The translations under genes and the position numbers were made by a program. DNA of 64,000 nt from a virus (lineage: Duplodnaviria; Caudoviricetes), in IMG/VR virus record IMGVR_UViG_2540341244_000008, positions 528 through 64,527 of that record. One strand, given 5' to 3'. Each line of letters starts with the position of its first letter. Within the stretch, counting starts at the first letter, position 1. Shown here in pieces: positions 14,822-45,786 of this stretch. The notes under the pieces are model-generated. The model saw only the letters and a program-made list of their open reading frames with translations, ran no database searches and was not told the origin of the DNA.

Positions 14822-14841
14822 CGCTGGATGCTGCCCGCCCC

Positions 14842-14879
14842 TATGAGCATCCGCCGCCCTTTCGATGAAACAATCTCGG
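14842..14879 (-). promoter_or_regulatory. Putative late-promoter motif, copy 3 (tape measure module)
   Basis: + strand TATGAGCATCCGCCGCCCTTTCGATGAAACAATCTCGG aligns ungapped with 25840 and 41958. Confidence 0.75.
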
Positions 14880-14918
14880 CTCGGGCCAACCCTGGTTTGG
14901 CAGGAGGGTGCCAAGCCG

Positions 14919-14956
14919 GCGGGACATGCGCCGCCCCTGGGGTGCGAAAACTTCCA
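14919..14956 (-). promoter_or_regulatory. Degenerate tandem copy of the late-promoter motif
   Basis: CATGCGCCGCCC-CTGG-GGTGCGAAAA matches core and spacing, but the -10 reads CATGTC. Confidence 0.45.
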
Positions 14957-25732: not shown

Positions 25733-25839
25733 GCGATTCCTCGCGCAATTTGCGGCCTTCCAGCCTGGTTTCTTCGAGGCTTCCGCCCCAGGTGTGAAAA
25801 TTCGTCACAGATTGAGATGTGGCCCACGCTATGGGCCGC

Positions 25840-25877
25840 CATGAGCATCCGCCGCCCCCTCGGTGCAAATATTTTGA
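25840..25877 (-). promoter_or_regulatory. Putative late-promoter motif, copy 2 (capsid module)
   Basis: + strand CATGAGCATCCGCCGCCCCCTCGGTGCAAATATTTTGA. Confidence 0.75.
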
Positions 25878-33812: not shown

Positions 33813-34022
33813 ATGGCGAAAGTCACCGATCCGAAGCTATTGGCCGAGCTCGAGGCTAGATTTGCGGCCGATCCACTGGTCATCAAGTGGACACCCAAGC
33901 GCCAGAGGGACGCTGCCCTCGGCCGGGCGCTCCTGCTTCGCGAGATCACGCAGCTTCCCCTTGGCCAGGTTGACGGCCCGAAGCGGCCGCCGGCGGCTGA
34001 CCCGGATTCAGAAATCGAGTAG
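33813..34022 (+). CDS. Counter-oriented small protein between portal and MuF
   Basis: Fills the gap between the two genes; TTGTCC-17bp-TACGCC ends 6 nt before ATG; no RBS. Confidence 0.4.
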   Translation: MAKVTDPKLLAELEARFAADPLVIKWTPKRQRDAALGRALLLREITQLPLGQVDGPKRPPAADPDSEIE

Positions 34023-35457
34023 CCGCCGTCTGGATCGTCCCGTCGCGGGCTTCGGTCATAAGGCGGTCCGCCTCGGCCTCGGCGTCGAAATCTTCCGACA
34101 GCCGACCCCGGCGCTGCAACTCTGCCCACACCGTTTCCCGCGAGAGCAATCCAGCTTGATAGGCCTGAGTCAACTCGGCCAGCGACATGTCGGTGACGGA
34201 CAGCCCGAAATCGCTGTTCACGTTGATGCCGCCGCAATCCTCGGGCTTCTTCCCGACCCAGGCACCCATGTATTGGATCATGAGCTCGAGTGAATCCTGA
34301 AGCCCCCAGGCCCAGGCTTGGAGCGGACAACTCGCCTTGGCCGTGTCCACACTCGTGGCCGTGGCCGTCATGTTCCCGGGGCGGGTGACCATGGGATCGA
34401 GAGCCATCTTGGCCATGCGGTCCTCGAGGTCGCGCATGGATTCGCGGTTGGATCCGATCGCAGCGCCGGTGTGTTCGACGAAGCCAAGCCGGGCCTCAAT
34501 GCTCGTGGACTTGAGCATCTTATTCGGCCCGATCTCGGTCACAGCTGCTCCGTCAGATTCGTTGTACCCGCTCCAGAACAGAATCGGCACGCTGGCCACG
34601 TGCTCAATCTGGTTGGCGTCCGACCATTTCTGCCAGTGCAGGCAATTCAGGTCCGCCAAGTCGGCCAAGGGAGGCTTTCCGGCCATGAAATCAGTGCGTT
34701 TCGTGTAGACCGGCACGATGGGGATGAAGCCGATGGACATGACCCCGGAGAGGTCCTTGTTCGCCTGCCAGCTTTCCTGGCCCTGTGCCCCCTTAACCTT
34801 CTCCCACACCGTGAAAAAGCAGCGCGGCTCTCCGCCCTCGGCCTGTTTTAGGTCCAACACCCGCACGCGGCAAACCGTCTTCTCGCCCCATTCTCCGTCC
34901 GCTTCCACGCTCGTTTCCCTGATGCGCACCTGCGTCAGCGTCTCCACGCCATTCACCCGTGCCGACTTCCAGCCGATCAGGTTTTGGCAGGGTACGTGGA
35001 CGCAGTAGGGCCTGGCCCCGGCAGCGCGCTCCTCTGCCAGGGTGCCGCCGGTCATCACCTGCGGGTAATCGACCAGGATGTAGGAGACGCCCAGGAAGGC
35101 GTCCTCGAAGACGGCCCGAGCAAAGCTGTTGAGGTCGTTTCCGGCCAGGTCGATGTTCTCGAGCCATTTGGCGATGTCCTCGGGAACGTCGTCCTTGGGG
35201 TGGGCCGGCTTCGAGAAAACCTTGCCCGTGAGGTCGCCCACGGCCTGGCCGTAGACGTTGAACAACACGGACCGTGAAAGGCGGTTTTCGTAGTTCTGGG
35301 GGCTTTCAGCGGGTTCCTGGGGCAGGTATTCTCGGCCGGCGGAACGCATGGCGGCCGTGCCGCCCATGAGGGTACGCGGTAGCTTCCGGGCCTGCTCCAT
35401 GTCCTGGTAAGCGAGGGAGGGAGTGTTGACGTTGGCGGCGTTGGGGGCGGTTGACAT
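33946..35457 (-). CDS. Portal protein (DUF4055 family)
   Basis: LMGGT.AMR.AG.EYLP, Y..RL.RS, KPPLADLA.LN..HWQ. Confidence 0.9.
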   Translation of the reverse strand: MSTAPNAANVNTPSLAYQDMEQARKLPRTLMGGTAAMRSAGREYLPQEPAESPQNYENRLSRSVLFNVYGQAVGDLTGKVFSKPAHPKDDVPEDIAKWLENIDLAGNDLNSFARAVFEDAFLGVSYILVDYPQVMTGGTLAEERAAGARPYCVHVPCQNLIGWKSARVNGVETLTQVRIRETSVEADGEWGEKTVCRVRVLDLKQAEGGEPRCFFTVWEKVKGAQGQESWQANKDLSGVMSIGFIPIVPVYTKRTDFMAGKPPLADLADLNCLHWQKWSDANQIEHVASVPILFWSGYNESDGAAVTEIGPNKMLKSTSIEARLGFVEHTGAAIGSNRESMRDLEDRMAKMALDPMVTRPGNMTATATSVDTAKASCPLQAWAWGLQDSLELMIQYMGAWVGKKPEDCGGINVNSDFGLSVTDMSLAELTQAYQAGLLSRETVWAELQRRGRLSEDFDAEAEADRLMTEARDGTIQTAATRFLNPGQPPAAASGRQPGQGEAA

Positions 35458-35465
35458 GGTGGACC

Positions 35466-36914
35466 TCACAGGGGGAAATCGACGACGGTGGTCTTGTTGC
35501 CGTTGAGGGGAAATTCCACGGCCGTATAGTACCTGGCTGCCGTGGTTATGTGCTGGAACTCGGAATCATCTTCTTGGAACGTGGAGCCCTTCTTGAACTG
35601 GAGCGTGGCGAGGCCCTTGTCGAGAAAGCGGCACTTGCTGGGGTTCACGAAAAACCGGCGAACACCCATGGCATCGCAGATGCGGCCGCGCAGGCTGGCC
35701 TGGCCGTCTTTAATAGAGGTGTTGGCCCGAGGAACCTTCATCTGGACACGGAAGCCTTCCTTCTTCAGGTAGCGCTCGATGGTGATGAAATCCGAGGCAT
35801 GCCCGTGCTTCTCGCCGGCATGGCCTGAGGCGTCGCCGTAAATCTTGACCAGGCAGCCCTTGTGGTCCTTGTAGCGCTCGCAGAACTCCCGGGCCGCCTG
35901 TTCGGCCACGGCCGACTGCAGCACGATTTCGTCCACCGCGTGGGTGTTTCGCTGAGCGTCTTCCTGGGCGATGAAGGAGGAGAGGGGAGTAAAGTTGAAA
36001 TCGTGGGACCAGATGATGTGGCCAAGACCAGGGTCAAATGTCCTGGCTGTATGGTTGCCGCTCAGGCCGGCCAAGTAGCCGTCGTAGACGTTCAGGCCGG
36101 CCACGGATCGGCCGTACAGGTTCATGATGAAGACGTTGACCCAGGCCATGTCCTTGCCCGGGATCTGGAGGAGGTAGTAATCGACGCCAATTTCGTGGTT
36201 GCAAATATTCTCGGCTTCAGGGTTCGGGAGATAGCGAAAGCGCGTCTGCCCGTTCTCGACATACTCCTCCCGCATAAGCGCCGGCGGCTGGGAGAAAAAT
36301 TCATAGCCGTCCGGATGGTCTTCCTCGGCCAGGGCGTACCACCAGTTGTCCACGTCAGGGCTGTTGGTGTCCGCGATGATGCCGGACCAGGAAAATCCCC
36401 CTTGGGCCTTGGAAGGGTAGCGGTTCACTCGCCCCGGACCCATGTCGATGATTTCTTTCGGTATCTCCGAGGCTTCGTTCCACCAGATGCCGGTAAGCTC
36501 CAAGGACTTGAGCTTCTTGACGTCCTTGGCCTTGTCCAGGGCCAGGAAGACAAGCTCAAGCTCCACCTTAGTTCCGTCTTGATGCACGGCCTTGAAGGTG
36601 CCGAGAATGGGGTGGCCATAGGTCATTTTGGTGCAAGCGGAAAACCAGTCGAGCCACGTCCGTATCGTTGTCGTCTTGAGTTCACCATAGGTGTTGCGAA
36701 CGATGGCCCATCGAGAGCGGCGAACTCCTTTGAATACTCTCTGCAAGAAGGCTCGTCTCACAATCTCCAGGCAACAGCCGACGCTTTTCCCTGACCCAAT
36801 GGGGCCGCGAATACCCCGGAAAAAGGCGGCCGACTCGTGGAACTGTGCCACGGTCGGTTCGGCTTGATAGTTGATCTCCAGGGGCGGCACGCTACTGCTT
36901 CCTCTTCGCTCCAA
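35466..36914 (-). CDS. terL: Terminase large subunit
   Basis: GPIGSGKS Walker A, WWNEASE Walker B, DTN coupling motif, HDFN/GDASG nuclease domain. Confidence 0.92.
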   Translation of the reverse strand: MERRGSSSVPPLEINYQAEPTVAQFHESAAFFRGIRGPIGSGKSVGCCLEIVRRAFLQRVFKGVRRSRWAIVRNTYGELKTTTIRTWLDWFSACTKMTYGHPILGTFKAVHQDGTKVELELVFLALDKAKDVKKLKSLELTGIWWNEASEIPKEIIDMGPGRVNRYPSKAQGGFSWSGIIADTNSPDVDNWWYALAEEDHPDGYEFFSQPPALMREEYVENGQTRFRYLPNPEAENICNHEIGVDYYLLQIPGKDMAWVNVFIMNLYGRSVAGLNVYDGYLAGLSGNHTARTFDPGLGHIIWSHDFNFTPLSSFIAQEDAQRNTHAVDEIVLQSAVAEQAAREFCERYKDHKGCLVKIYGDASGHAGEKHGHASDFITIERYLKKEGFRVQMKVPRANTSIKDGQASLRGRICDAMGVRRFFVNPSKCRFLDKGLATLQFKKGSTFQEDDSEFQHITTAARYYTAVEFPLNGNKTTVVDFPL

Positions 36915-37251
36915 AATTCAGGTTGAACACCGTCCCCTCGTCGGCCTGCTCCGCAGGCTTGGCTGGGGCCTGCCCATAGCCCCGGTTTCGGGCCTTGTTG
37001 TTGAGGTAGTACATAGCGGCGGCAAGGCTTCCTTGTTGTATCAACGAAAAAAGAGTTCCTTCTGCCATATCGGCAACGCGGTCGCATTCTTCTTGGTATG
37101 CTTCTTCAACCTTTGGAAACCTACGTCGATAGCTTGCGAACGTATTCCTACAAATATTGAGGCGTTCACAAATGTCATTAATCAAGCCTCCAGTGTCCTT
37201 AATGGCTTCAATTATTTGCTCAGCATTGTGGCGCGATCTTGTATTAGCCAT
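36892..37251 (-). CDS. terS: Terminase small subunit (HTH)
   Basis: N-terminal HTH, D.AE..L, RNRGYG; directly upstream of terL. Confidence 0.8.
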   Translation of the reverse strand: MANTRSRHNAEQIIEAIKDTGGLINDICERLNICRNTFASYRRRFPKVEEAYQEECDRVADMAEGTLFSLIQQGSLAAAMYYLNNKARNRGYGQAPAKPAEQADEGTVFNLNFGAKRKQ

Positions 37252-37304
37252 GGCGCGATTATTTTTTATTGACTTGTTATAGTTAAATTGCTAGGCGGCA
37301 TGAC

Positions 37305-38006
37305 ATGGAATGCCAAAACTACGAGCAAATTTTGGCAGAGGTAAGGAGCAAGACCCCGGATGGGAAAGTGTTGCTCTCGTTCTCTGGGGGAAAAGACGCC
37401 TGGGGCGTATGGCTGGCACTCCGGGACCACTTTGAACTGCAGCCGTTCTACTACTACCTTGTGCCGGGGCTGGAATTCATTGAGGATTACCTGGCCTATG
37501 CCGAGCGAAAGCTGGGCAAGCACATTCTCAGGCTGCCCAACCCGCGCTTGGCCGACATGCTGCGGGAGTACGTCTACCAGCCGCCCGAGCGCTGGCCTGT
37601 GCTGCAGGCCGCCAACCTGCCGAAGTTTACCTTTGACGACCTTTCCCGGGCCGCCGAGGACGCTGTGGACTGGCCGGAGGGGTGTTGGACGGCCCTGGGG
37701 GTGCGCGCCGCCGACTCCGTGCGCCGCGCCATGCTGTTCAAGACCCACGGGGCCATCAACGACAAGCGCCGGTATTTCTATCCGATCTGGGACTGGAAGA
37801 AGGACAGGCTGCTGGAGGAGATTACCCGGGCCGGCATCAAACTCCCCGTGGACTACAAGCTCTTCGGTCGGACGTTCGACGGCGTGTACCTGCTCTATCT
37901 CTGGAACATCAAAAAGCATTTTCCCCGGGACTACGCGCGGATTCTCCAGTGGTTCCCGGACGCCGACATGGAGGTGTGGCGCTATGAGCAGTCCCTCAAA
38001 GGGTAA
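37305..38006 (+). CDS. PP-loop adenine nucleotide alpha hydrolase (PAPS-reductase-like, no Fe-S cysteines)
   Basis: LLSFSGGKDA, GVRAADS..R, YPIWDW, LPVDY.LFGRTFDG. Confidence 0.85.
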   Translation: MECQNYEQILAEVRSKTPDGKVLLSFSGGKDAWGVWLALRDHFELQPFYYYLVPGLEFIEDYLAYAERKLGKHILRLPNPRLADMLREYVYQPPERWPVLQAANLPKFTFDDLSRAAEDAVDWPEGCWTALGVRAADSVRRAMLFKTHGAINDKRRYFYPIWDWKKDRLLEEITRAGIKLPVDYKLFGRTFDGVYLLYLWNIKKHFPRDYARILQWFPDADMEVWRYEQSLKG

Positions 38007-38475
38007 ATTCGGTTCGACGGGGTTCTCCATGGACAAGGGGGCCGGCTTCTCGACCGGAGCCAAGGGCTTCTCCATGAAGAAGCCCAAGCTGCCGCCGGAC
38101 CCGCTCAAGAACGTGCCGGTGACGGGCGATCCCGAGGCGGATTCCGCCGCCGAGATGGACGCGTTGCTGGACGCCATGAACGCCGAGGAGGCCAAACACA
38201 GGGCCATTCGGGACGGCGAAAAGGCGGTGGCGCAAAAGATCGACGACATGACGAACCCCTGGTTCTACTCCAGGATCTGCTTCCAGTCCGAGGCCCAGGC
38301 GCGGGCGTTCAACGAGGCGTTGGGCATTCCTGGCGACTCCATGATTCTCGACGGTGTGGCCCTTGCCCGGCGGCTTGGCATTGAGCTGCCCGAGGCCGAC
38401 CCGACCACGTTGCGAGCAAACGCCAAGCCGGACAAGCGGTTAAACGCGCTGGTGCGCGAGTTCCAAGAGGACTAG
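37984..38475 (+). CDS. Partner hypothetical protein of the PP-loop enzyme
   Basis: GGAGG RBS, overlaps upstream stop; N-terminal GFS repeats; DPL..V..TGD.EADSAAE, ICFQS, ILDG..LA..LG. Confidence 0.75.
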   Translation: MSSPSKGKFGSTGFSMDKGAGFSTGAKGFSMKKPKLPPDPLKNVPVTGDPEADSAAEMDALLDAMNAEEAKHRAIRDGEKAVAQKIDDMTNPWFYSRICFQSEAQARAFNEALGIPGDSMILDGVALARRLGIELPEADPTTLRANAKPDKRLNALVREFQED

Positions 38476-38603
38476 GACCCCGAGGTCCGGGACCGGCCAC
38501 GCGAACCCGGGGGCAGCGCCAACTGGCCGGTGGTGCCCCCGCCGCGACGGCCACGAATGCGATTGTAGCCGCGTACTACCGCGTCACGAATGCGCCTGAA
38601 CAT
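38472..38603 (-). CDS. 43-aa Arg/Gly-rich peptide (absent from ORF track)
   Basis: AAAGGAG RBS 6 nt before ATG; MFRRIRDAVVRGYNRIRGRRGGGTTGQLALPPGSRGRSRTSGS. Confidence 0.7.
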   Translation of the reverse strand: MFRRIRDAVVRGYNRIRGRRGGGTTGQLALPPGSRGRSRTSGS

Positions 38604-38609
38604 CGTCCG

Positions 38610-38961
38610 CTCCTTTATGGGGTTCAATTTTGCTCACGACGCGGTGACGAGAACGCCCCCGCAGCCTTTGCCGAAAATGTCTTTGCGCCCGTGCTCAAGG
38701 CGCATCCCTCCCCGTAGAAACCCCGAAAACCGGCCTTAATCCTGTTGCCTCTCCCACGCGAAATATCGGGCCTACCGTGCCTGCCCAGCGATCATTGACA
38801 CGGGGCTTAACGCTGGATTCCCCCGGGGCAGGCTCACCCACACGACACACGCCTTCCGAAAAGAGGTGCCCGTTTATCCGTTGCGCCCGGGCTTACTTGG
38901 CCTGCCAGGCGCGTTCGGCGGCCGGGTAGAGCCGCCGCGTGGTTTTGGCTTCTTCCCGGCG
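38610..38961 (-). ncRNA. Candidate structured RNA, ~350 nt
   Basis: No credible ORF; at least four helices plus a possible pseudoknot. Confidence 0.4.
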
Positions 38962-39216
38962 CTACTGCGGGACCTTGAATCCCATTCTGGTAAGCGCCCA
39001 AACAACGAGGACGATGGCCCCGTACTCCAGAATCTTGACCACGACGACAGAGCGCACCTTGAGCGCCCCCTTCATGGCCCGGTGCTGTTCAGCGTGCTCC
39101 TCCGGGCTGAGGGGGCATTTCGAGCAGCACGCCGGGGCGCCGCACTTGCCGCCGTTGTCCTTGGCAAGCGCCAGGGCCACTGCCTCGGCGATGCGCTTCA
39201 CGTCGTCGTCGACCAC
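38962..39216 (-). CDS. Small membrane protein of the lysis cassette
   Basis: GTG just after patatin stop; Cys cluster; C-terminal TM. Confidence 0.6.
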   Translation of the reverse strand: MVDDDVKRIAEAVALALAKDNGGKCGAPACCSKCPLSPEEHAEQHRAMKGALKVRSVVVVKILEYGAIVLVVWALTRMGFKVPQ

Positions 39217-39218
39217 GC

Positions 39219-40151
39219 CTACGCCCCCTCCTGCAGCAGCTGCAGCGCTGTATAAAACTCGGCTCGCTCGGCGATTCGCTCGGCGTGCAGACGCATGACG
39301 GCAAAGGACCGGGTATCGGTGGCGTCCATGGCCACGGACTCGGAAAGATCGGCTTGGAGCCGAATATAGCGATCCCCGAGCACATGCTGGCACTGGTGGT
39401 CGGTGACGTCGGAGGCCGCGGCGAACATGCAGTCGATCAAGGGGCGAGCCCAGCCGGCCAGGCCCCAATTCCGTGCCCGGGCCAACATGTAGGGCCGATC
39501 CTCCCGCCCGGTTCCCAGGGAGACGAGGCAGGAGCGATCAGCCAGAGAGGCCCCTTGCTTGACGACCTCGACGGCTGCGCACAGGGCCGGATTGTTGGCC
39601 GCGACACCGCCGTCGATGCAGGCCAGGCGGTCGCCTCCCTGGCTTATGATCTCGACCGGCTCGAAATAGGTGGGGGCCGCTGCCGAGGCCATGGCCACGT
39701 CGACCAATCGGAAATCCCGATGATGGTCCCGATGCGCGTCCCAGGAGGTGAAGAAGACCGTCTTCCGGGTTTCGATCTCGTAGGCAACGACCAGTACGGC
39801 GGGTCCGGTCCGGGAAAGGTCAGCCAAGGTCTTGTTGCCGAAGATCTCCACAAGCCCGGCCCGAAGTCCGGTGTTGTCGTACTGCTCGTCGATGAGGCCG
39901 AAGGCCGACCGCATACGGCGCCCAAGGGTCCGGCTGAAAATGGAGGCGGCCTTGGCCTTGTAGAAAGCCGCCAAGTCGGCGGCGGGAATGCCTGCGGCGA
40001 GCCCAAGGGCCAGGATCGCGCCCGTGGATGTGCCGGCAATAAGGTCGGTCATGGCCGAGATGGGTTTCCCGGCCTGTGCTTCAAGTTGGGCCAGGACCAG
40101 GGCGGGCAGGAAGCCCTTGATGCCGCCACCGTCTATGGAGACGATCCGCAT
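39219..40151 (-). CDS. Patatin-like phospholipase
   Basis: DGGGIKG, GTSTG nucleophile elbow, AAPTYF, DGGVAANNP, SLGTG. Confidence 0.93.
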   Translation of the reverse strand: MRIVSIDGGGIKGFLPALVLAQLEAQAGKPISAMTDLIAGTSTGAILALGLAAGIPAADLAAFYKAKAASIFSRTLGRRMRSAFGLIDEQYDNTGLRAGLVEIFGNKTLADLSRTGPAVLVVAYEIETRKTVFFTSWDAHRDHHRDFRLVDVAMASAAAPTYFEPVEIISQGGDRLACIDGGVAANNPALCAAVEVVKQGASLADRSCLVSLGTGREDRPYMLARARNWGLAGWARPLIDCMFAAASDVTDHQCQHVLGDRYIRLQADLSESVAMDATDTRSFAVMRLHAERIAERAEFYTALQLLQEGA

Positions 40152-40975: not shown

Positions 40976-41875
40976 TCACAACCGCACCCCGTTGACCTCG
41001 GCCGGCCAAACCCCGGAAAGCAGCATGTGCGTGATGCGGCCGACGCGGTTGGGGGTCTGGCGCGCCCATTGGGACAGCGCCAGGTTGTGGACGGCCCCCT
41101 CGAAATCATGGGCGCGAAGGCAGGCGATGGTATTTTTGAATTTGACCGCGCTGCCGACGCCAAGCTGGTAGACGCCGGAGATGAAAACAGCCTGGCGTAC
41201 CTCGTCGAAATCGTCGTCCCAACGGGGCCAATGGGCCTCCAGTTCCGAGATGGTGGCCGCCACCTCGGCACGCAACGCCCGGTCGGCCTGTTCGGGCGTC
41301 CAGACGAGATTGCGGGCCTCGCTGTCGGGCACGCCATGAGCGGTGAGGTTGTAGCCGTGGCCGATGTCCCAAACCTTGCCGATGCGGTCCCAATGCCCCT
41401 TGAGCACCAGGCCTTCTTCGGCTTTGAGCCAGGCAATGGTCTTTTCCAGGCCAGGGCCGCCGTTGGCGATGGATGCGGAGGTCAGGGGGGCGGGGGAGGC
41501 AACCGGATCCGGCGCAACGGCCAAGGAGGACGGCGGCTGCTGGCCGTTTACCGGCTCGATGATCTCCACCCGAGAGAGCTCGGGGAACTCGCCCGCTACC
41601 TGGAGATTGGGAGCGGTGTTGATGAGGCCGCATCGGGCAAGGTTGATCTCCTGCTCCCAGGCGGCGCACCAAAAGGCATGGGCGATGGTCAGGTATTGCG
41701 ACGGGTCGCTGACCGGCGGGTACGGGGCCACGGTCAGGACCAGGCCCGAGCCCCGGACGATGGAAAAGTCGATGGGCGAGAGCTCAAGCGCCCGGGTGGC
41801 GAGCCCCTGCAGGGTAGGATGGCAGGTGGCCAGTACGGCCAGGGATTTTGATCCGAACTTGTGCGATTGCGCCAT
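40976..41875 (-). CDS. Endolysin: degenerate M15-peptidase-like N-terminus plus T4-type lysozyme
   Basis: EEG....HWD..G.VWDIGHG, SQWARQTPNR; N-terminal KFGSKS..L..CHP.L....RAL..SPIDFSI..G. Confidence 0.85.
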   Translation of the reverse strand: MAQSHKFGSKSLAVLATCHPTLQGLATRALELSPIDFSIVRGSGLVLTVAPYPPVSDPSQYLTIAHAFWCAAWEQEINLARCGLINTAPNLQVAGEFPELSRVEIIEPVNGQQPPSSLAVAPDPVASPAPLTSASIANGGPGLEKTIAWLKAEEGLVLKGHWDRIGKVWDIGHGYNLTAHGVPDSEARNLVWTPEQADRALRAEVAATISELEAHWPRWDDDFDEVRQAVFISGVYQLGVGSAVKFKNTIACLRAHDFEGAVHNLALSQWARQTPNRVGRITHMLLSGVWPAEVNGVRL

Positions 41876-41957
41876 GGCGGCCCCCCAAGGGTGGTCCGCC
41901 GCGCACCGCCGGGATGGGGTGGGGCGGACCTTTTGTTGGGGCCATGATGGGTGGCGT

Positions 41958-41995
41958 CATGAGCATGCGCCGCCCTAAGGATGAAAATATTTTGG
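41958..41995 (-). promoter_or_regulatory. Putative late-promoter motif, copy 1 (lysis/packaging module)
   Basis: + strand CATGAGCATGCGCCGCCCTAAGGATGAAAATATTTTGG immediately downstream of the Mor-family gene. Confidence 0.75.
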
Positions 41996-44976: not shown

Positions 44977-45786
44977 TCACGTGGCCACCAACCTGTTTGG
45001 GTCCGTTCTGCCCTTTGACTTATAGTGTGTCTTGAAACCTTTGTAATAGTCACGCAGCCACAATTCGAAAGTTGCATGCTTTTGTGGTTCGCCATTGGAA
45101 AGACGGGCTTCGAACCAACGCCGGCAAGCATGCTCAAATGTTTTGTAAATTCCTGGCCAGCGTTGCTTGTTTCTATTTATTCGATCTTGGTTTTTCCCAA
45201 AAAGAAAAGGGCACACGACACAGCCAACTCTGTTCCAACCCTCATCATAAAGCGTAGGGTATGGAAGATGATACTTTTCGATAAAATCCCACACTTGCCA
45301 CTCTTGCCAGTGGAATATGGGCTTTATGGTCAAGATTTTACGCTCATCGTTCCAGTCGATGCGAGGCCTCGATGCGCGTGCAACGCTCTCCTCTGCCCGA
45401 ATCCCCATGACTCTTACCCGAAGGGATATGTCCCGAGACGGGTCCTTTTTTAGGACGTCGCAACACCACCTCATGCTTCCCAATGGAGGCCACTCCGTTT
45501 GGATTGCATCCCAAAAAGTTCTCTCGGGGAACAGCCAGATCGTGTCCGGGTGATGATGGCGCAGGAACCGGTATATTTCCGGCGGATCGATGCGCGTGCA
45601 TGAGTAGTAGGCTTGAAATTTCACGCCCGCCATCTGGCATAGTTTTCTGGTGACGTTGCTGTCCTTGCCACCAGAATCCCCCACAAAATACCCCTCCGGC
45701 GGCTCATGCTGTCGCAGGAAGTCAATCGTCTCCTGGATGACGTAGTCCAGGGGCAGGAGGGCATACTGACGGGCCGGACCGGTCAT
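44977..45786 (-). CDS. PAPS-reductase-family protein with Fe-S cysteines
   Basis: SGGKDS, RWCC..LKK, GIRAEES..RA, RVGCVVCP. Confidence 0.9.
   Translation of the reverse strand: MTGPARQYALLPLDYVIQETIDFLRQHEPPEGYFVGDSGGKDSNVTRKLCQMAGVKFQAYYSCTRIDPPEIYRFLRHHHPDTIWLFPERTFWDAIQTEWPPLGSMRWCCDVLKKDPSRDISLRVRVMGIRAEESVARASRPRIDWNDERKILTIKPIFHWQEWQVWDFIEKYHLPYPTLYDEGWNRVGCVVCPFLFGKNQDRINRNKQRWPGIYKTFEHACRRWFEARLSNGEPQKHATFELWLRDYYKGFKTHYKSKGRTDPNRLVAT

What the first reader, a model, noticed from the sequence alone, without database searches (positions are those of the whole stretch)
37269..38961. PP-loop enzyme + partner + hidden Arg/Gly-rich peptide + structured leader: candidate peptide-ligation/modification system at the packaging genes
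Seen: between the lysis cassette and terS, a + strand pair (PP-loop SFSGGKD enzyme lacking Fe-S cysteines, plus an overlapping 163-aa partner) has its own TTGACT-17bp-TAGGCG promoter. It converges on a 43-aa minus-strand ORF missed by the ORF track, with an AAAGGAG RBS, 11 Arg, 8 Gly and a C-terminal RTSGS. The two stop codons interlock in one CTAG (38472-38475). Known: PP-loop enzymes (TilS, ThiI, QueC, asparagine synthetase) adenylate a carboxyl/carbonyl and transfer it to a nucleophile. From memory and unverified, similar enzyme/partner/basic-peptide triads occur near terminases in unrelated phages. Inference: the enzyme is made from a host-type promoter and the peptide only from the late transcript. 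The peptide C-terminus could be activated and attached to DNA, RNA or a virion protein, or the peptide could be a protamine-like packaging or anti-defence factor.
Basis: partly seen in the sequence, partly recalled or inferred. Interest (0 to 1): 0.88.

Follow-up and report, generated by a model that had tools for sequence, protein, structure and literature searches.

The report
Phage PP-loop enzyme, adaptor, tailed peptide
A tiny, very basic phage protein that gene finders miss is a real gene: together with an ATP-using enzyme mislabelled as a sulfur-metabolism gene and an unknown small protein, it forms a three-gene set that recurs beside the DNA-packaging genes of many unrelated phages and has no measured function.

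Summary
The core observation holds. Window 37305-38006 (+) encodes a PP-loop, PAPS-reductase-like enzyme. 37984-38475 (+) encodes an overlapping 163-aa partner of no known family. 38472-38603 (-) encodes a 43-aa Arg/Gly peptide with a strong ribosome-binding site.

The peptide is not a chance ORF. I fetched 160 loci with the enzyme alone.
- 158 of them carry the partner.
- 98 of 158 loci (35 of 67 lineages at 70% identity) carry a small basic ORF beside the partner.
- Its typical tail is R-[S/T]-S-G-[S/T].
- Such tails are about 15-fold enriched in that zone.
- 61% of them have a strong Shine-Dalgarno, against 3% of other small ORFs.

The set lies beside terminases of at least five families, and enzyme and partner are fused in two contigs.

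Two side claims fail. The "structured leader" folds no better than shuffled sequence. The proposed -10 hexamer is poor and varies in relatives.

The chemistry is unmeasured. My best reading is that enzyme plus adaptor activate the peptide's tail with ATP. The scan found a sister class (glycine-tailed peptide, PP-loop enzyme, ParB) on other DNA. This is a variant with a new partner and a new tail. My searches found no paper on it.

The parts
37305..38006 (+). PP-loop ATP pyrophosphatase of the PAPS-reductase-like clade, 233 aa. It has no conserved cysteine.
   Evidence: phrog_424 at 2.7e-19 and phrog_2302 at 2e-18. No Pfam or NCBIfam hit. Invariant S27, G29, K30, D31 and G132, R134, D137, R141 in 29 sequences. 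AlphaFold2 pLDDT 95.2. Best folds: FAD synthase PAPS domain Z 13.0, CysD Z 12.6, CysH Z 12.0.
37984..38475 (+). Partner or adaptor protein, 163 aa, of an unnamed family. It has a disordered N-terminus, a long helix and a small acidic C-terminal domain. It is translationally coupled to the enzyme by a 23-nt overlap.
   Evidence: No Pfam, PHROG or NCBIfam family. A profile finds it in 158 of 160 enzyme loci, and in 153 right after the enzyme. 1769 representatives at E <= 1e-3 in 1.84 billion. Fused to the enzyme in L002 and L003. pLDDT 80.1, no fold match. Core net charge median -6.
38472..38603 (-). Tailed basic peptide, 43 aa (11 Arg, 9 Gly, pI 12, ends RTSGS). Its stop codon interlocks with the partner's in CTAG at 38472-38475.
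   Evidence: It aligns with 39 peptides from other loci at 19-53% identity. Convergent counterparts with SD sit at the partner stop in L001, L002, L003, L005, L006, L008, L023 and L081. In one related contig, all 15 gap letters of a 1042-nt piece lie at 38540-38586 and sum to +9 nt, so the frame is kept.
38610..38616 (-). Shine-Dalgarno AAAGGAG of the peptide gene, 6 nt before the ATG.
   Evidence: Read directly from the sequence. AGGAG or GGAGG precedes 37 of 61 tail ORFs beside the partner, against 471 of 14191 other small ORFs.
38617..38961 (.). ORF-free spacer upstream of the peptide gene. It is not shown to be structured and its role is unknown.
   Evidence: z = +2.19 and +1.45. No Rfam match. 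About as conserved as the flanking genes in related contigs: 94.4% and 96.7% against 90.6-93.9%.
37252..37304 (.). 53-nt AT-rich divergent control region between terS and the enzyme gene.
   Evidence: The scan calls only the minus-strand site at 37286 to 37258. Positions 37295, 37296 and 37300 differ in related contigs.
36892..37251 (-). Small terminase-like HTH protein, 119 aa.
   Evidence: Pfam HTH_Tnp_1 at 3.3e-5. phrog_309 terminase small subunit at 4.2e-4.
35466..36914 (-). Large terminase, 482 aa.
   Evidence: phrog_2 at 2.1e-16 and phrog_10250 at 1.7e-8.

Best explanation
This is a self-contained three-gene phage module kept beside the DNA-packaging genes. It has three parts:
1. An ATP-binding PP-loop enzyme of the PAPS-reductase-like clade, which is not a sulfate-pathway enzyme.
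2. A small acidic adaptor protein of an unnamed family, made by translational coupling with the enzyme.
3. A ribosomally made, very basic peptide of 24-55 aa. Its body varies, but its end is typically R-[S/T]-S-G-[S/T].

Proposed working: the adaptor holds the basic peptide and presents its flexible tail to the enzyme's nucleotide site. The enzyme uses ATP to adenylylate the tail, at the terminal carboxylate or at a tail serine or threonine. The activated peptide is then passed to an acceptor that matters at packaging time, such as DNA or a virion or packaging protein.

SHOWN: the three genes are real, co-occur and keep together through rearrangements. The enzyme has the PP-loop and the fold. 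The tail is the conserved part of the peptide.

INFERRED: that the peptide is the enzyme's substrate, that adenylylation is the step, that the partner is an adaptor, and what the acceptor is.
For: CO-OCCURRENCE
- The loci were picked with the enzyme only.
- The partner is present in 158 of 160, and in 153 directly after the enzyme.
- Rule-passing tail peptides lie within -60 to +600 nt of the partner stop in 98 of 158 loci, and in 35 of 67 enzyme lineages at 70% identity.

ENRICHMENT
- ORFs of 18-95 aa ending [ST]G[ST] number 61 in that zone (0.259 per kb) and 40 elsewhere (0.0177 per kb).
- For a profile of the peptides, 67 of 75 hits at 10 bits or more lie in a zone that is 8.4% of the DNA.
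- The 8 hits elsewhere carry the same tail.

TRANSLATION SIGNALS
- AGGAG or GGAGG precedes 37 of 61 such ORFs, against 471 of 14191 other small ORFs.

NOT A GC ARTEFACT
- The peptide is also there in a low-GC gut phage (L048) and in Pasteurella phage Pm86.

LINKAGE THROUGH REARRANGEMENT
- The usual order is enzyme, partner, peptide, terS, terL.
- In the window and in L002, L003, L005, L006, L008 and L023, the enzyme-partner pair is inverted and the peptide converges on the partner stop.
- In L001 and L081 the peptide follows terL and again converges on the partner.

OTHER POINTS
- Fusion: enzyme and partner form one ORF in L002 and L003.
- Dosage: two tandem peptides with the same tail in at least 10 loci, and in Pm86.
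- Tail versus body: in my 40-peptide alignment the last five positions are R 30, S/T 30, S 36, G 35, S/T 36 of 40, while mean column identity is 21%. These rows were hand-picked partly by tail.
- Charge: peptides have a median of +8 and no cysteine. The partner core has a median of -6.
- Enzyme: invariant PP-loop. The nearest folds are adenylyl-transferring or AMP-ester-handling members: FMN adenylyltransferase domain Z 13.0, CysD 12.6, CysH 12.0.
- Precedent: PP-loop enzymes work on protein termini in Cap9-CdnD and QatC-QatB (abstracts read).
Against: - No chemistry was measured, and no co-fold could be run.
- 32 of 67 enzyme lineages have no rule-passing peptide beside the partner. Some have variants seen only by eye, some have the peptide elsewhere in the locus, and some have none that I could find (for example L004).
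- In several lineages the S-G-S motif is not the true end. 3 to 11 further residues follow in Cutibacterium phage CA1NRNZ, BigBern1, L002, L130 and L134. This speaks against an obligatory free carboxylate, unless the extension is trimmed.
- The partner has no recognisable fold or catalytic residue, so "adaptor" is a guess.
- Adjacency to terminase could reflect only a permissive slot at the head of the late operon.
- The loci are related to one another, so the counts are not independent.
Confidence: 0.45

Rival explanations
1. The peptide is a nucleic-acid-binding late protein. It could be a protamine-like charge neutraliser, a small-terminase helper or an end-binding protein. It is genetically linked to the enzyme but is not its substrate. 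Enzyme and partner act on DNA or on a nucleotide, as DndC or the PP-loop/ParB pairs are thought to.
For: - pI 12 and no cysteine.
- An arginine-rich start that recurs across the alignment, M-R-x-x-x-R.
- The peptide sits at the head of the packaging operon in most loci.
- Sister modules carry a ParB-like protein in place of the partner (Lactobacillus phage LR1, ParB_N at 1.8e-4, below Pfam's cut-off).
- In some lineages the tail motif is not terminal.
Against: - The most conserved part of the peptide is a neutral Ser/Gly tail rather than a basic face.
- The peptide stays with the enzyme-partner pair rather than with terS when the order changes.
- It was not found in 8 loci with a related terL but without the enzyme: no profile hit of 6 bits or more, and one strict-tail ORF that looks like chance. 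The sample is small.
Confidence: 0.25
2. The peptide is the acceptor, not the acyl donor. A tail Ser or Thr hydroxyl is nucleotidylated, or is joined to an enzyme-activated phosphate or base of the phage DNA. The result is a peptide-nucleotide or peptide-DNA conjugate.
For: - The last residue is S, T or Y in 38 of my 40 aligned peptides.
- The nearest folds transfer AMP to oxygen nucleophiles or handle AMP esters.
- The motif tolerates short C-terminal extensions.
- The module sits at the packaging genes.
Against: - No evidence bears on any DNA or nucleotide adduct.
- Nothing in the partner looks DNA-binding.
- The terminases beside the module belong to at least five PHROG families, so no single kind of DNA end is implied.
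Confidence: 0.15
3. The enzyme is a true PAPS reductase, an auxiliary sulfur-assimilation gene, as phage annotations and some papers take it to be.
For: - PHROG and source names say "phosphoadenosine phosphosulfate reductase".
- A preprint reads Bifidobacterium prophage copies this way (passages read).
Against: - The enzyme makes no hit to Pfam PAPS_reduct.
- No cysteine is conserved in 29 sequences. PAPS reductases need a catalytic cysteine (recalled).
- It is almost always joined to the partner and lies beside terminase.
- The preprint's authors themselves found no downstream pathway genes.
Confidence: 0.02
4. The 43-aa ORF is a chance open frame in GC-rich non-coding DNA.
For: - Arg/Gly-rich shadow ORFs abound in this 60-65% GC window.
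- GC at codon position 2 is 0.72, unlike the 0.38-0.50 typical of the window's genes that have phage-family matches (for example enzyme 0.38, terL 0.42, portal 0.47).
- The middle of the ORF is the most indel-prone stretch in related contigs.
Against: See the recurrence, tail, SD and low-GC evidence given for the best explanation.
Confidence: 0.02

Closest known systems
Phage modules of glycine-tailed basic peptide, PAPS-reductase-like PP-loop enzyme and ParB-like protein before the terminase. These are known from this scan's earlier notes and not from any paper I found. Lactobacillus phage LR1 was seen here as an example.
   Same: - The enzyme is homologous (LR1 enzyme 31.9% identical over 91% of the query, E 7e-23).
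- A small or mid-sized basic protein with a Ser/Gly tail lies next to it.
- The position is directly before terS and terL.
   Different: - The third protein here is not ParB-like (no ParB_N hit in 42 partners).
- The tail is R-[S/T]-S-G-[S/T] rather than Gly-Gly.
- The gene order is enzyme, partner, peptide, whereas the notes describe peptide, enzyme, ParB.
- No look-alike of the partner was on record in the scan.
Cap9-CdnD (type IV CBASS deazaguanylation) and QatC-QatB (QatABCD)
   Same: A PP-loop enzyme forms a specific pair with a protein whose flexible, small-residue terminus it modifies (abstracts read). The Cap9 complex is a fold match at Z 10.2.
   Different: - Those enzymes are QueC-family, act on N-termini with a glycine motif, and belong to host defence.
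- Here the enzyme is nearest the PAPS-reductase clade, the conserved motif is C-terminal, and the system is a phage's own.
TtuA-TtuB and Ncs6-Urm1 tRNA thiolation pairs
   Same: A PP-loop enzyme receives the C-terminal tail of a small carrier protein in its active site. TtuA is among the Foldseek matches, including the TtuA-TtuB complex 5gha.
   Different: - The carrier there is a folded ubiquitin-like protein ending Gly-Gly (recalled), and the enzyme carries an Fe-S cluster (entry titles).
- Here the peptide is 24-55 aa, basic, without cysteine and with a Ser/Gly tail, and the enzyme has no conserved cysteine.
CysH, CysD and the eukaryotic FAD synthase PAPS domain (Pfam PF01507 clade)
   Same: These are the best fold matches (Z 12.0-13.0). 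The PP-loop and the G-x-R-x-x-[DE]-S-x-x-R motif are shared (the family motif is recalled).
   Different: - Below Pfam's cut-off.
- No catalytic cysteine tail.
- A family-specific C-terminal helical part with invariant Y184, P207, D209, Y210, P218 and R226.
- An obligatory partner and peptide.
DndC with DndB (DNA phosphorothioation)
   Same: A PP-loop ATP pyrophosphatase that acts on DNA and is paired with a small accessory protein (passages read).
   Different: DndC has a 4Fe-4S centre on three cysteines and a cysteine dyad, and it needs a cysteine desulfurase. None of these is present here. No desulfurase was seen among the upstream neighbours scanned.
Microcin C synthesis (MccA peptide adenylylated at its C-terminus by MccB). 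Recalled, not tested.
   Same: A ribosomal peptide whose C-terminal residue is joined to AMP by a dedicated enzyme encoded next to it.
   Different: MccB is E1/ThiF-like, not PP-loop. The peptide ends in Asn. The product is an exported toxin, not a phage late function.

Membership tests
PP-loop ATP pyrophosphatase superfamily | SGGxDS-type PP-loop after the first strand | tested here: met
   S-F-S-x-G-K-D with S27, G29, K30 and D31 invariant in 29 sequences.
PP-loop ATP pyrophosphatase superfamily | Rossmann-like alpha/beta fold shared with solved members | tested here: met
   Model pLDDT 95.2. 106 Foldseek matches at E <= 0.001, all listed ones PP-loop enzymes. VIA-align gave 35 chains at Z >= 8.
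PAPS reductase family (Pfam PF01507) | Score above Pfam's gathering cut-off | tested here: not met
   No hit at E <= 0.1 for the window protein. Only 2 of the 120 homologues listed carry PF01507. The L002 fusion scores 18.8 bits against a cut-off of 22.5.
PAPS/APS reductase (CysH) function | Catalytic cysteine in a flexible C-terminal tail (motif recalled) | tested here: not met
   No cysteine is among the invariant or 90% columns of 29 sequences.
DndC / Fe-S PP-loop thiolases (TtuA, NcsA) | Cysteines that hold a 4Fe-4S cluster | tested here: not met
   No conserved cysteine. DndC's features were taken from passages read.
QueC family (Cap9, QatC) | Membership of Pfam PF06508 and a partner with an N-terminal glycine motif | tested here: not met
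   No Pfam hit. QueC Z 9.6 and Cap9 Z 10.2 lie below the PAPS clade's 12-13. The conserved motif of the peptide is C-terminal.
Phage PP-loop + ParB + tailed-peptide modules (scan notes; IbrA/IbrB-like pairs) | A ParB/Srx-like protein encoded beside the enzyme | tested here: not met
   The window partner and 41 relatives give no ParB_N hit. There is no fold match. LR1, a more distant carrier, has a weak ParB_N hit.
Phage PP-loop + ParB + tailed-peptide modules (scan notes) | A small basic peptide with a conserved small-residue tail, next to a PAPS-reductase-like enzyme and terminase | tested here: met
Ubiquitin-like carrier systems (TtuB, Urm1, ThiS) | A folded beta-grasp carrier ending Gly-Gly | tested here: not met
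   The peptides are 24-50 aa, 22% Arg and 17% Gly, and end S-G-S or S-G-T. No fold was predicted for them.
RiPP precursor with RRE-type recognition protein | A PqqD-like winged-helix recognition element in the partner | tested here: inconclusive
   No Pfam family. The model is mostly one long helix plus a small domain, with no informative match. The C-terminal domain was not folded alone.

The most novel reading that the evidence does not exclude
Phages use this triad to join a ribosomally made, arginine-rich peptide covalently to their own DNA at packaging time, either to a base, to the backbone or to the ends that terminase makes. The PP-loop enzyme would supply the ATP-driven activation. 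This would be a peptide-DNA hypermodification that neutralises charge and hides the genome from host nucleases. It would also explain the strong ribosome-binding sites, the tandem peptide genes and the constant place beside terminases of many families.
Probability: 0.12. Interest if true: 0.95.

Novelty: new variant of a known kind. Interest (0 to 1): 0.8.

Why it matters
- Genes labelled "PAPS reductase" are among the commonest supposed metabolic genes in phage and prophage annotation, and they are read as sulfur metabolism. For this family that reading is very probably wrong.
- The enzyme belongs to a three-part set whose third member is missed by gene callers. It is unannotated, for example, in the GenBank record of the cultured Pasteurella phage Pm86.
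- The set is widespread. The partner family alone has 1769 representatives at 50% identity. The enzyme loci come from Proteobacteria, Actinobacteria, Firmicutes, Bacteroidota, Verrucomicrobia, Planctomycetes and Myxococcota.
- If the tail is the enzyme's substrate, this is an undescribed ATP-dependent peptide chemistry acting at DNA packaging.
- Cultured carriers make it directly testable: Gordonia phages such as Cafasso, Cutibacterium phage CA1NRNZ, Bifidobacterium phage BigBern1 and Pm86.

Tried and rejected
CHANCE ORF. This was my first reading (70%, stated). It rested on GC-rich shadow ORFs, no tblastn relatives of the peptide (best E 0.012) and indels in relatives. I gave it up.

STRUCTURED RNA LEADER. 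Rejected.

REPEATS OF THE SPACER. None of note involves 38476-38961.

tRNA. None in the window.

CLOSE RELATIVES OF THE WINDOW.
- Enzyme relatives at 97%, 82% and 79% exist in the protein collection, but I could not fetch their DNA.
- The metagenome scan gave only 3 loci at 38-41% identity.
- 401 genomes of the order of L081's genome gave 4 matches, the best at 64%.
- Logan contigs of four runs were laid instead. They show presence and differences only.

RNA. No RNA holder was listed.

CO-FOLDING.

PEPTIDE PROFILE. Against 5.8 billion proteins it gave nothing at E <= 0.01. This is uninformative for a short, low-complexity query.

PARTNER FOLD.
- Foldseek against PDB gave no match at E <= 0.001.
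- VIA-align wide gave only single-helix matches at Z about 5.
- BFVD gave no match at E <= 0.001.
- PDB by sequence gave nothing for enzyme or partner.
- The Atlas gave only unnamed viral clusters.

FOURTH CONSERVED GENE UPSTREAM. 278 upstream ORFs fell into 192 clusters. I scanned 97 of the 192 representatives against Pfam, and no family matched more than 2.

TAIL FUSED TO ENZYME OR PARTNER. 0 of 120 and 0 of 253 homologues.

WIDER SET OF ENZYME-LESS TERMINASE LOCI.
- The single terL query gave 9 loci.
- The terL alignment was too diverged to scan.
- tblastn of one peptide against 50,697 phage records found only Pm86, over the first 16 residues at E 0.06.

LITERATURE.
- "IbrA, IbrB" returned only retina papers.
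- "PP-loop, phage, peptide, terminase" returned 0 papers.
- "PAPS reductase, ParB, phage" returned 7 papers and "PAPS reductase, phage, terminase" 22. I saw these as listings and abstract starts only, and none is on this triad.
- Supplements were not opened.

ROWS DROPPED. L161-L167 were left out of the locus statistics (short, or fetched later). L056 and L111 were left out of counts anchored on the partner.

BIAS. The peptide alignment A3 was hand-picked from ORFs flagged by position, basicity or tail, so its tail frequencies are biased upward. The profile built on it was then searched over the same loci (28 of the 61 loci hit were not in the training set).


Full report
WHAT IS THERE

The window is a virus record of 64.5 kb with 51-68% GC over 2-kb windows. 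The minus strand runs as follows:
- a lysis block: an endolysin-sized ORF at 40976-41875 and patatin at 39219-40151 (Pfam 1.9e-30);
- an ORF-free stretch;
- after the finding, a terS-like gene (36892-37251), terL (35466-36914) and an ORF at 33946-35469 in the portal position. I did not scan that last ORF against any family library.

Between these lies, on the plus strand, a 233-aa enzyme (37305-38006) and a 163-aa ORF (37984-38475) that overlaps it by 23 nt. On the minus strand lies a 43-aa ORF (38472-38603). It has AAAGGAG 6 nt before its ATG, 11 Arg, 9 Gly and the end RTSGS. Its stop codon shares CTAG (38472-38475) with the partner's stop.

THE ENZYME

- It has no Pfam or NCBIfam match. It matches two PHROGs named phosphoadenosine phosphosulfate reductase, at 2.7e-19 and 2e-18.
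- 181 relatives were found among 437 candidates.
- In an alignment of 29 sequences the PP-loop (S27, G29, K30, D31) and a G-x-R-x-x-D-S-x-x-R motif are invariant or nearly so. No cysteine is conserved.
- The AlphaFold2 model is confident (pLDDT 95.2).
- It is nearest to the PAPS-reductase clade of PP-loop enzymes: human FAD synthase PAPS domain (Z 13.0, 160 residues, rmsd 3.3), CysD (12.6), TilS/MesJ (12.0) and CysH (12.0).
- Foldseek also lists GMP synthase, TtuA, TilS and LarE.
- It is therefore an ATP-binding PP-loop protein. It fails the tests for a true PAPS reductase and for the Fe-S thiolases and DndC.

THE PARTNER

- It has no family in Pfam, PHROGs or NCBIfam. This holds for the window protein. 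Against Pfam it also holds for 41 relatives.
- Its model (pLDDT 80.1) shows a disordered N-terminus, a confidently placed extended segment, one long helix (residues 50-90) and a small C-terminal domain.
- No fold search gave more than single-helix matches.
- A profile finds 1769 representatives at E <= 1e-3 (1236 at 1e-10) among 1.84 billion proteins.
- Its conserved core is acidic, with a median net charge of -6.

RECURRENCE OF THE PAIR

I fetched 160 loci with the enzyme alone: 80 from IMG/VR and 80 from species genomes of many phyla.
- The partner profile hits 158 of them, and in 153 directly after the enzyme. The genes mostly overlap by a few bases.
- In L002 and L003, contigs from two metagenomes, enzyme and partner form one open frame.

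PLACE BESIDE THE TERMINASE

- 114 of 160 loci hold a recognised terL cluster within the 4-kb flanks. In 102 it lies downstream and co-oriented (median 1157 nt from the enzyme's end). In 10 it lies upstream and divergent, as in the window. In 2 it lies downstream and convergent.
- Those terminases belong to at least five PHROG families (2, 9, 15, 38, 979). The small subunits and portals also vary.
- The genes upstream of the enzyme are not conserved. 278 ORFs fall into 192 clusters, and no Pfam family occurs in more than 2 of the 97 representatives scanned.

THE PEPTIDE

I first took it for a shadow ORF. Arg/Gly-rich frames are common here, tblastn found no relatives, and its middle is indel-rich in related contigs. 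That reading fell for the following reasons.

1. Convergent counterparts. In the loci whose enzyme-partner pair is not co-oriented with terL, a convergent ORF of 37-50 aa, rich in Arg and Gly, abuts or overlaps the partner's stop. Each has AAGGAG, GAGGAGG or AAAGGAG in front. These loci are L001, L002, L003, L005, L006, L008, L023 and L081.
2. The usual arrangement. A basic ORF of 24-55 aa follows the partner on the same strand, before terS, and typically ends R-[S/T]-S-G-[S/T].
3. Enrichment. ORFs of 18-95 aa ending [ST]G[ST] number 61 in the short zone after the partner and 40 in the remaining roughly 90% of the DNA. That is 0.259 against 0.0177 per kb, with binomial p = 1e-36 if loci are treated as independent, which they are not.
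4. Counts after de-replication. There are 67 enzyme lineages at 70% identity. 25 have a strict tail in the zone. 35 pass one of three rules (strict tail, relaxed tail, or profile at 10 bits or more). As loci, this is 98 of 158. Adding a still wider rule gives 106 of 158.
5. Peptides elsewhere. Eight further profile hits lie elsewhere in their loci and carry the same tail.
6. Translation signals. AGGAG or GGAGG precedes an in-frame start in 37 of 61 such ORFs, against 471 of 14191 other small ORFs.
7. Low-GC genomes. The peptide is present where Arg/Gly frames are not expected, as in L048.
8. Tandem copies. At least ten loci have two tandem peptides with different bodies and the same tail.
9. 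No fusion. No enzyme homologue (0 of 120) and no partner homologue (0 of 253) carries the tail itself.

The window's peptide aligns with the family. Like L147, L090, L129 and L014 it starts M-F-x-R, and it ends RTSGS.

In one related contig, all 15 gap letters of a 1042-nt piece lie at 38540-38586 and sum to +9 nt, so the frame is kept.

CULTURED CARRIERS

Eleven phage records hold the enzyme.
- Pasteurella phage Pm86 has two tail peptides in a 315-nt gap with no annotation.
- Gordonia phage Cafasso has genes 166-168 as enzyme, a doubled partner and a 48-aa peptide.
- Cutibacterium phage CA1NRNZ has an annotated 35-aa ORF in which S-S-G-S is followed by five more residues.
- In BigBern1, the gap after the doubled partner holds a 33-aa ORF whose A-S-G-S is followed by three residues.
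- Lactobacillus phage LR1 instead has a 141-aa basic protein with a Ser/Gly tail and a weak ParB_N protein. This links the family to the ParB-type modules that this scan has noted on other DNA.

WHAT FAILED

- The proposed promoter has a good -35 but a -10 that matches 2 of 6 positions. The scan does not call it, and two of its letters vary in relatives.
- The 350-nt "leader" is not unusually stable (z = +2.19 and +1.45) and matches no Rfam family.
- It is, however, about as conserved as the genes in related contigs, so it may hold some other signal.
- Expression timing could not be tested.

HOW IT MOST LIKELY WORKS

Shown: three genes are real, co-inherited, kept adjacent through at least three different arrangements, once fused, and placed beside terminases of many kinds. 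The enzyme has an intact ATP site. The peptide's conserved part is its tail.

Inferred: the tail is what the enzyme acts on.
- The nearest solved relatives transfer AMP from ATP to an oxygen nucleophile or handle such esters. That makes adenylylation of the terminal carboxylate or of a tail hydroxyl the most economical first step.
- PP-loop enzymes that act on flexible protein termini are known (Cap9-CdnD and QatC-QatB; abstracts).
- The acidic partner would hold the basic peptide.
- Strong ribosome-binding sites and tandem copies fit a peptide that is consumed rather than catalytic.
- The acceptor is unknown. The place beside terminase points to DNA or a packaging or virion protein.

Against a free-carboxylate mechanism, several lineages extend the peptide beyond S-G-S. 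I therefore hold the carboxylate and hydroxyl versions about equally likely within the model.

Odds:
- 0.45 that the peptide tail is the enzyme's substrate or co-substrate;
- 0.25 that the peptide is a linked nucleic-acid-binding late protein while the enzyme acts elsewhere;
- 0.15 on the acceptor version, which overlaps with the novel case;
- 0.02 each on sulfur metabolism and on chance.

COMPARISON AND NOVELTY

The system works most like the tail-handling PP-loop pairs (TtuA-TtuB, Cap9-CdnD, QatC-QatB), but it is a member of none. It lacks the Fe-S cysteines, the QueC family match and a ubiquitin-like carrier, and its motif is C-terminal.

It is a sister of the ParB-type peptide/PP-loop modules seen earlier in this scan. 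It differs in the third protein, the tail and the gene order. No look-alike of the partner was on record in the scan.

My searches found no paper on the triad. Phage papers treat the enzyme as a sulfur gene. Supplements were closed and might hold gene tables that I could not see.

I rate it a new variant of a known kind, with interest 0.8.

Noticed in passing
window 44977-45786 (-): A second PP-loop gene in the same phage. This one is a clear Pfam PAPS_reduct member (2.3e-23, above the cut-off), unlike the enzyme of the finding.
   Followed up: partly
window 38916-38947 (+): A terminator-like hairpin on the + strand (7 G-C pairs, then CGTGGTTTTG), 440 nt past the partner's stop. If the enzyme-partner transcript ends there, it runs antisense through the whole peptide gene and its spacer.
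   Followed up: no
window 38617-38961: The ORF-free spacer is as conserved in related metagenome contigs (94.4% and 96.7% identity) as the neighbouring genes (90.6-93.9%), although it is not predicted to be structured. It might hold a packaging or regulatory signal.
   Followed up: partly
window 37258-37286 (-): A promoter-like TTAACT-17-AATAAT faces terS in the 53-nt divergent region. It is the only site the scan called in 36800-39600.
   Followed up: no
L168 3643-3780 and 3793-3891 (Pasteurella phage Pm86, MH238467.1): Two tail peptides ending RSSGS lie in a 315-nt gap that has no annotated gene, between ORF52 and ORF53 of a cultured phage.
   Followed up: yes
L002 3962-5383; L169 3139-3834; L181 1521-2156: The partner's core domain occurs twice in one protein in several lineages: the L002 fusion, Gordonia phage Cafasso gp167 and BigBern1. 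The profile search also lists hits with two matched stretches.
   Followed up: partly
L180 1349-1456; L181 2219-2320; L002 5380-5532: In some actinobacterial and other lineages, 3-11 mostly basic residues follow the S-G-S motif. This raises the question of whether the peptide is trimmed.
   Followed up: no
window 38962-39468 (-): The long ORF overlaps the end of the patatin gene. Only its last ~37 codons look like a gene: a short hydrophobic, membrane-like protein that ends the lysis block.
   Followed up: no
window 14837-14953, 25835-25874, 41953-41992: There are three copies of a 29-34 nt direct repeat at 72-82% identity to the reference copy. One lies just upstream of the lysis block on the minus strand.
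   Followed up: no
bioRxiv 10.64898/2026.02.18.706556 (passages read): A preprint reads prophage "PAPS reductase" of Bifidobacterium longum as a sulfur-assimilation gene, while noting that no downstream pathway exists. I did not test whether those genes belong to the family studied here. A Bifidobacterium phage (BigBern1) does carry this family.
   Followed up: no
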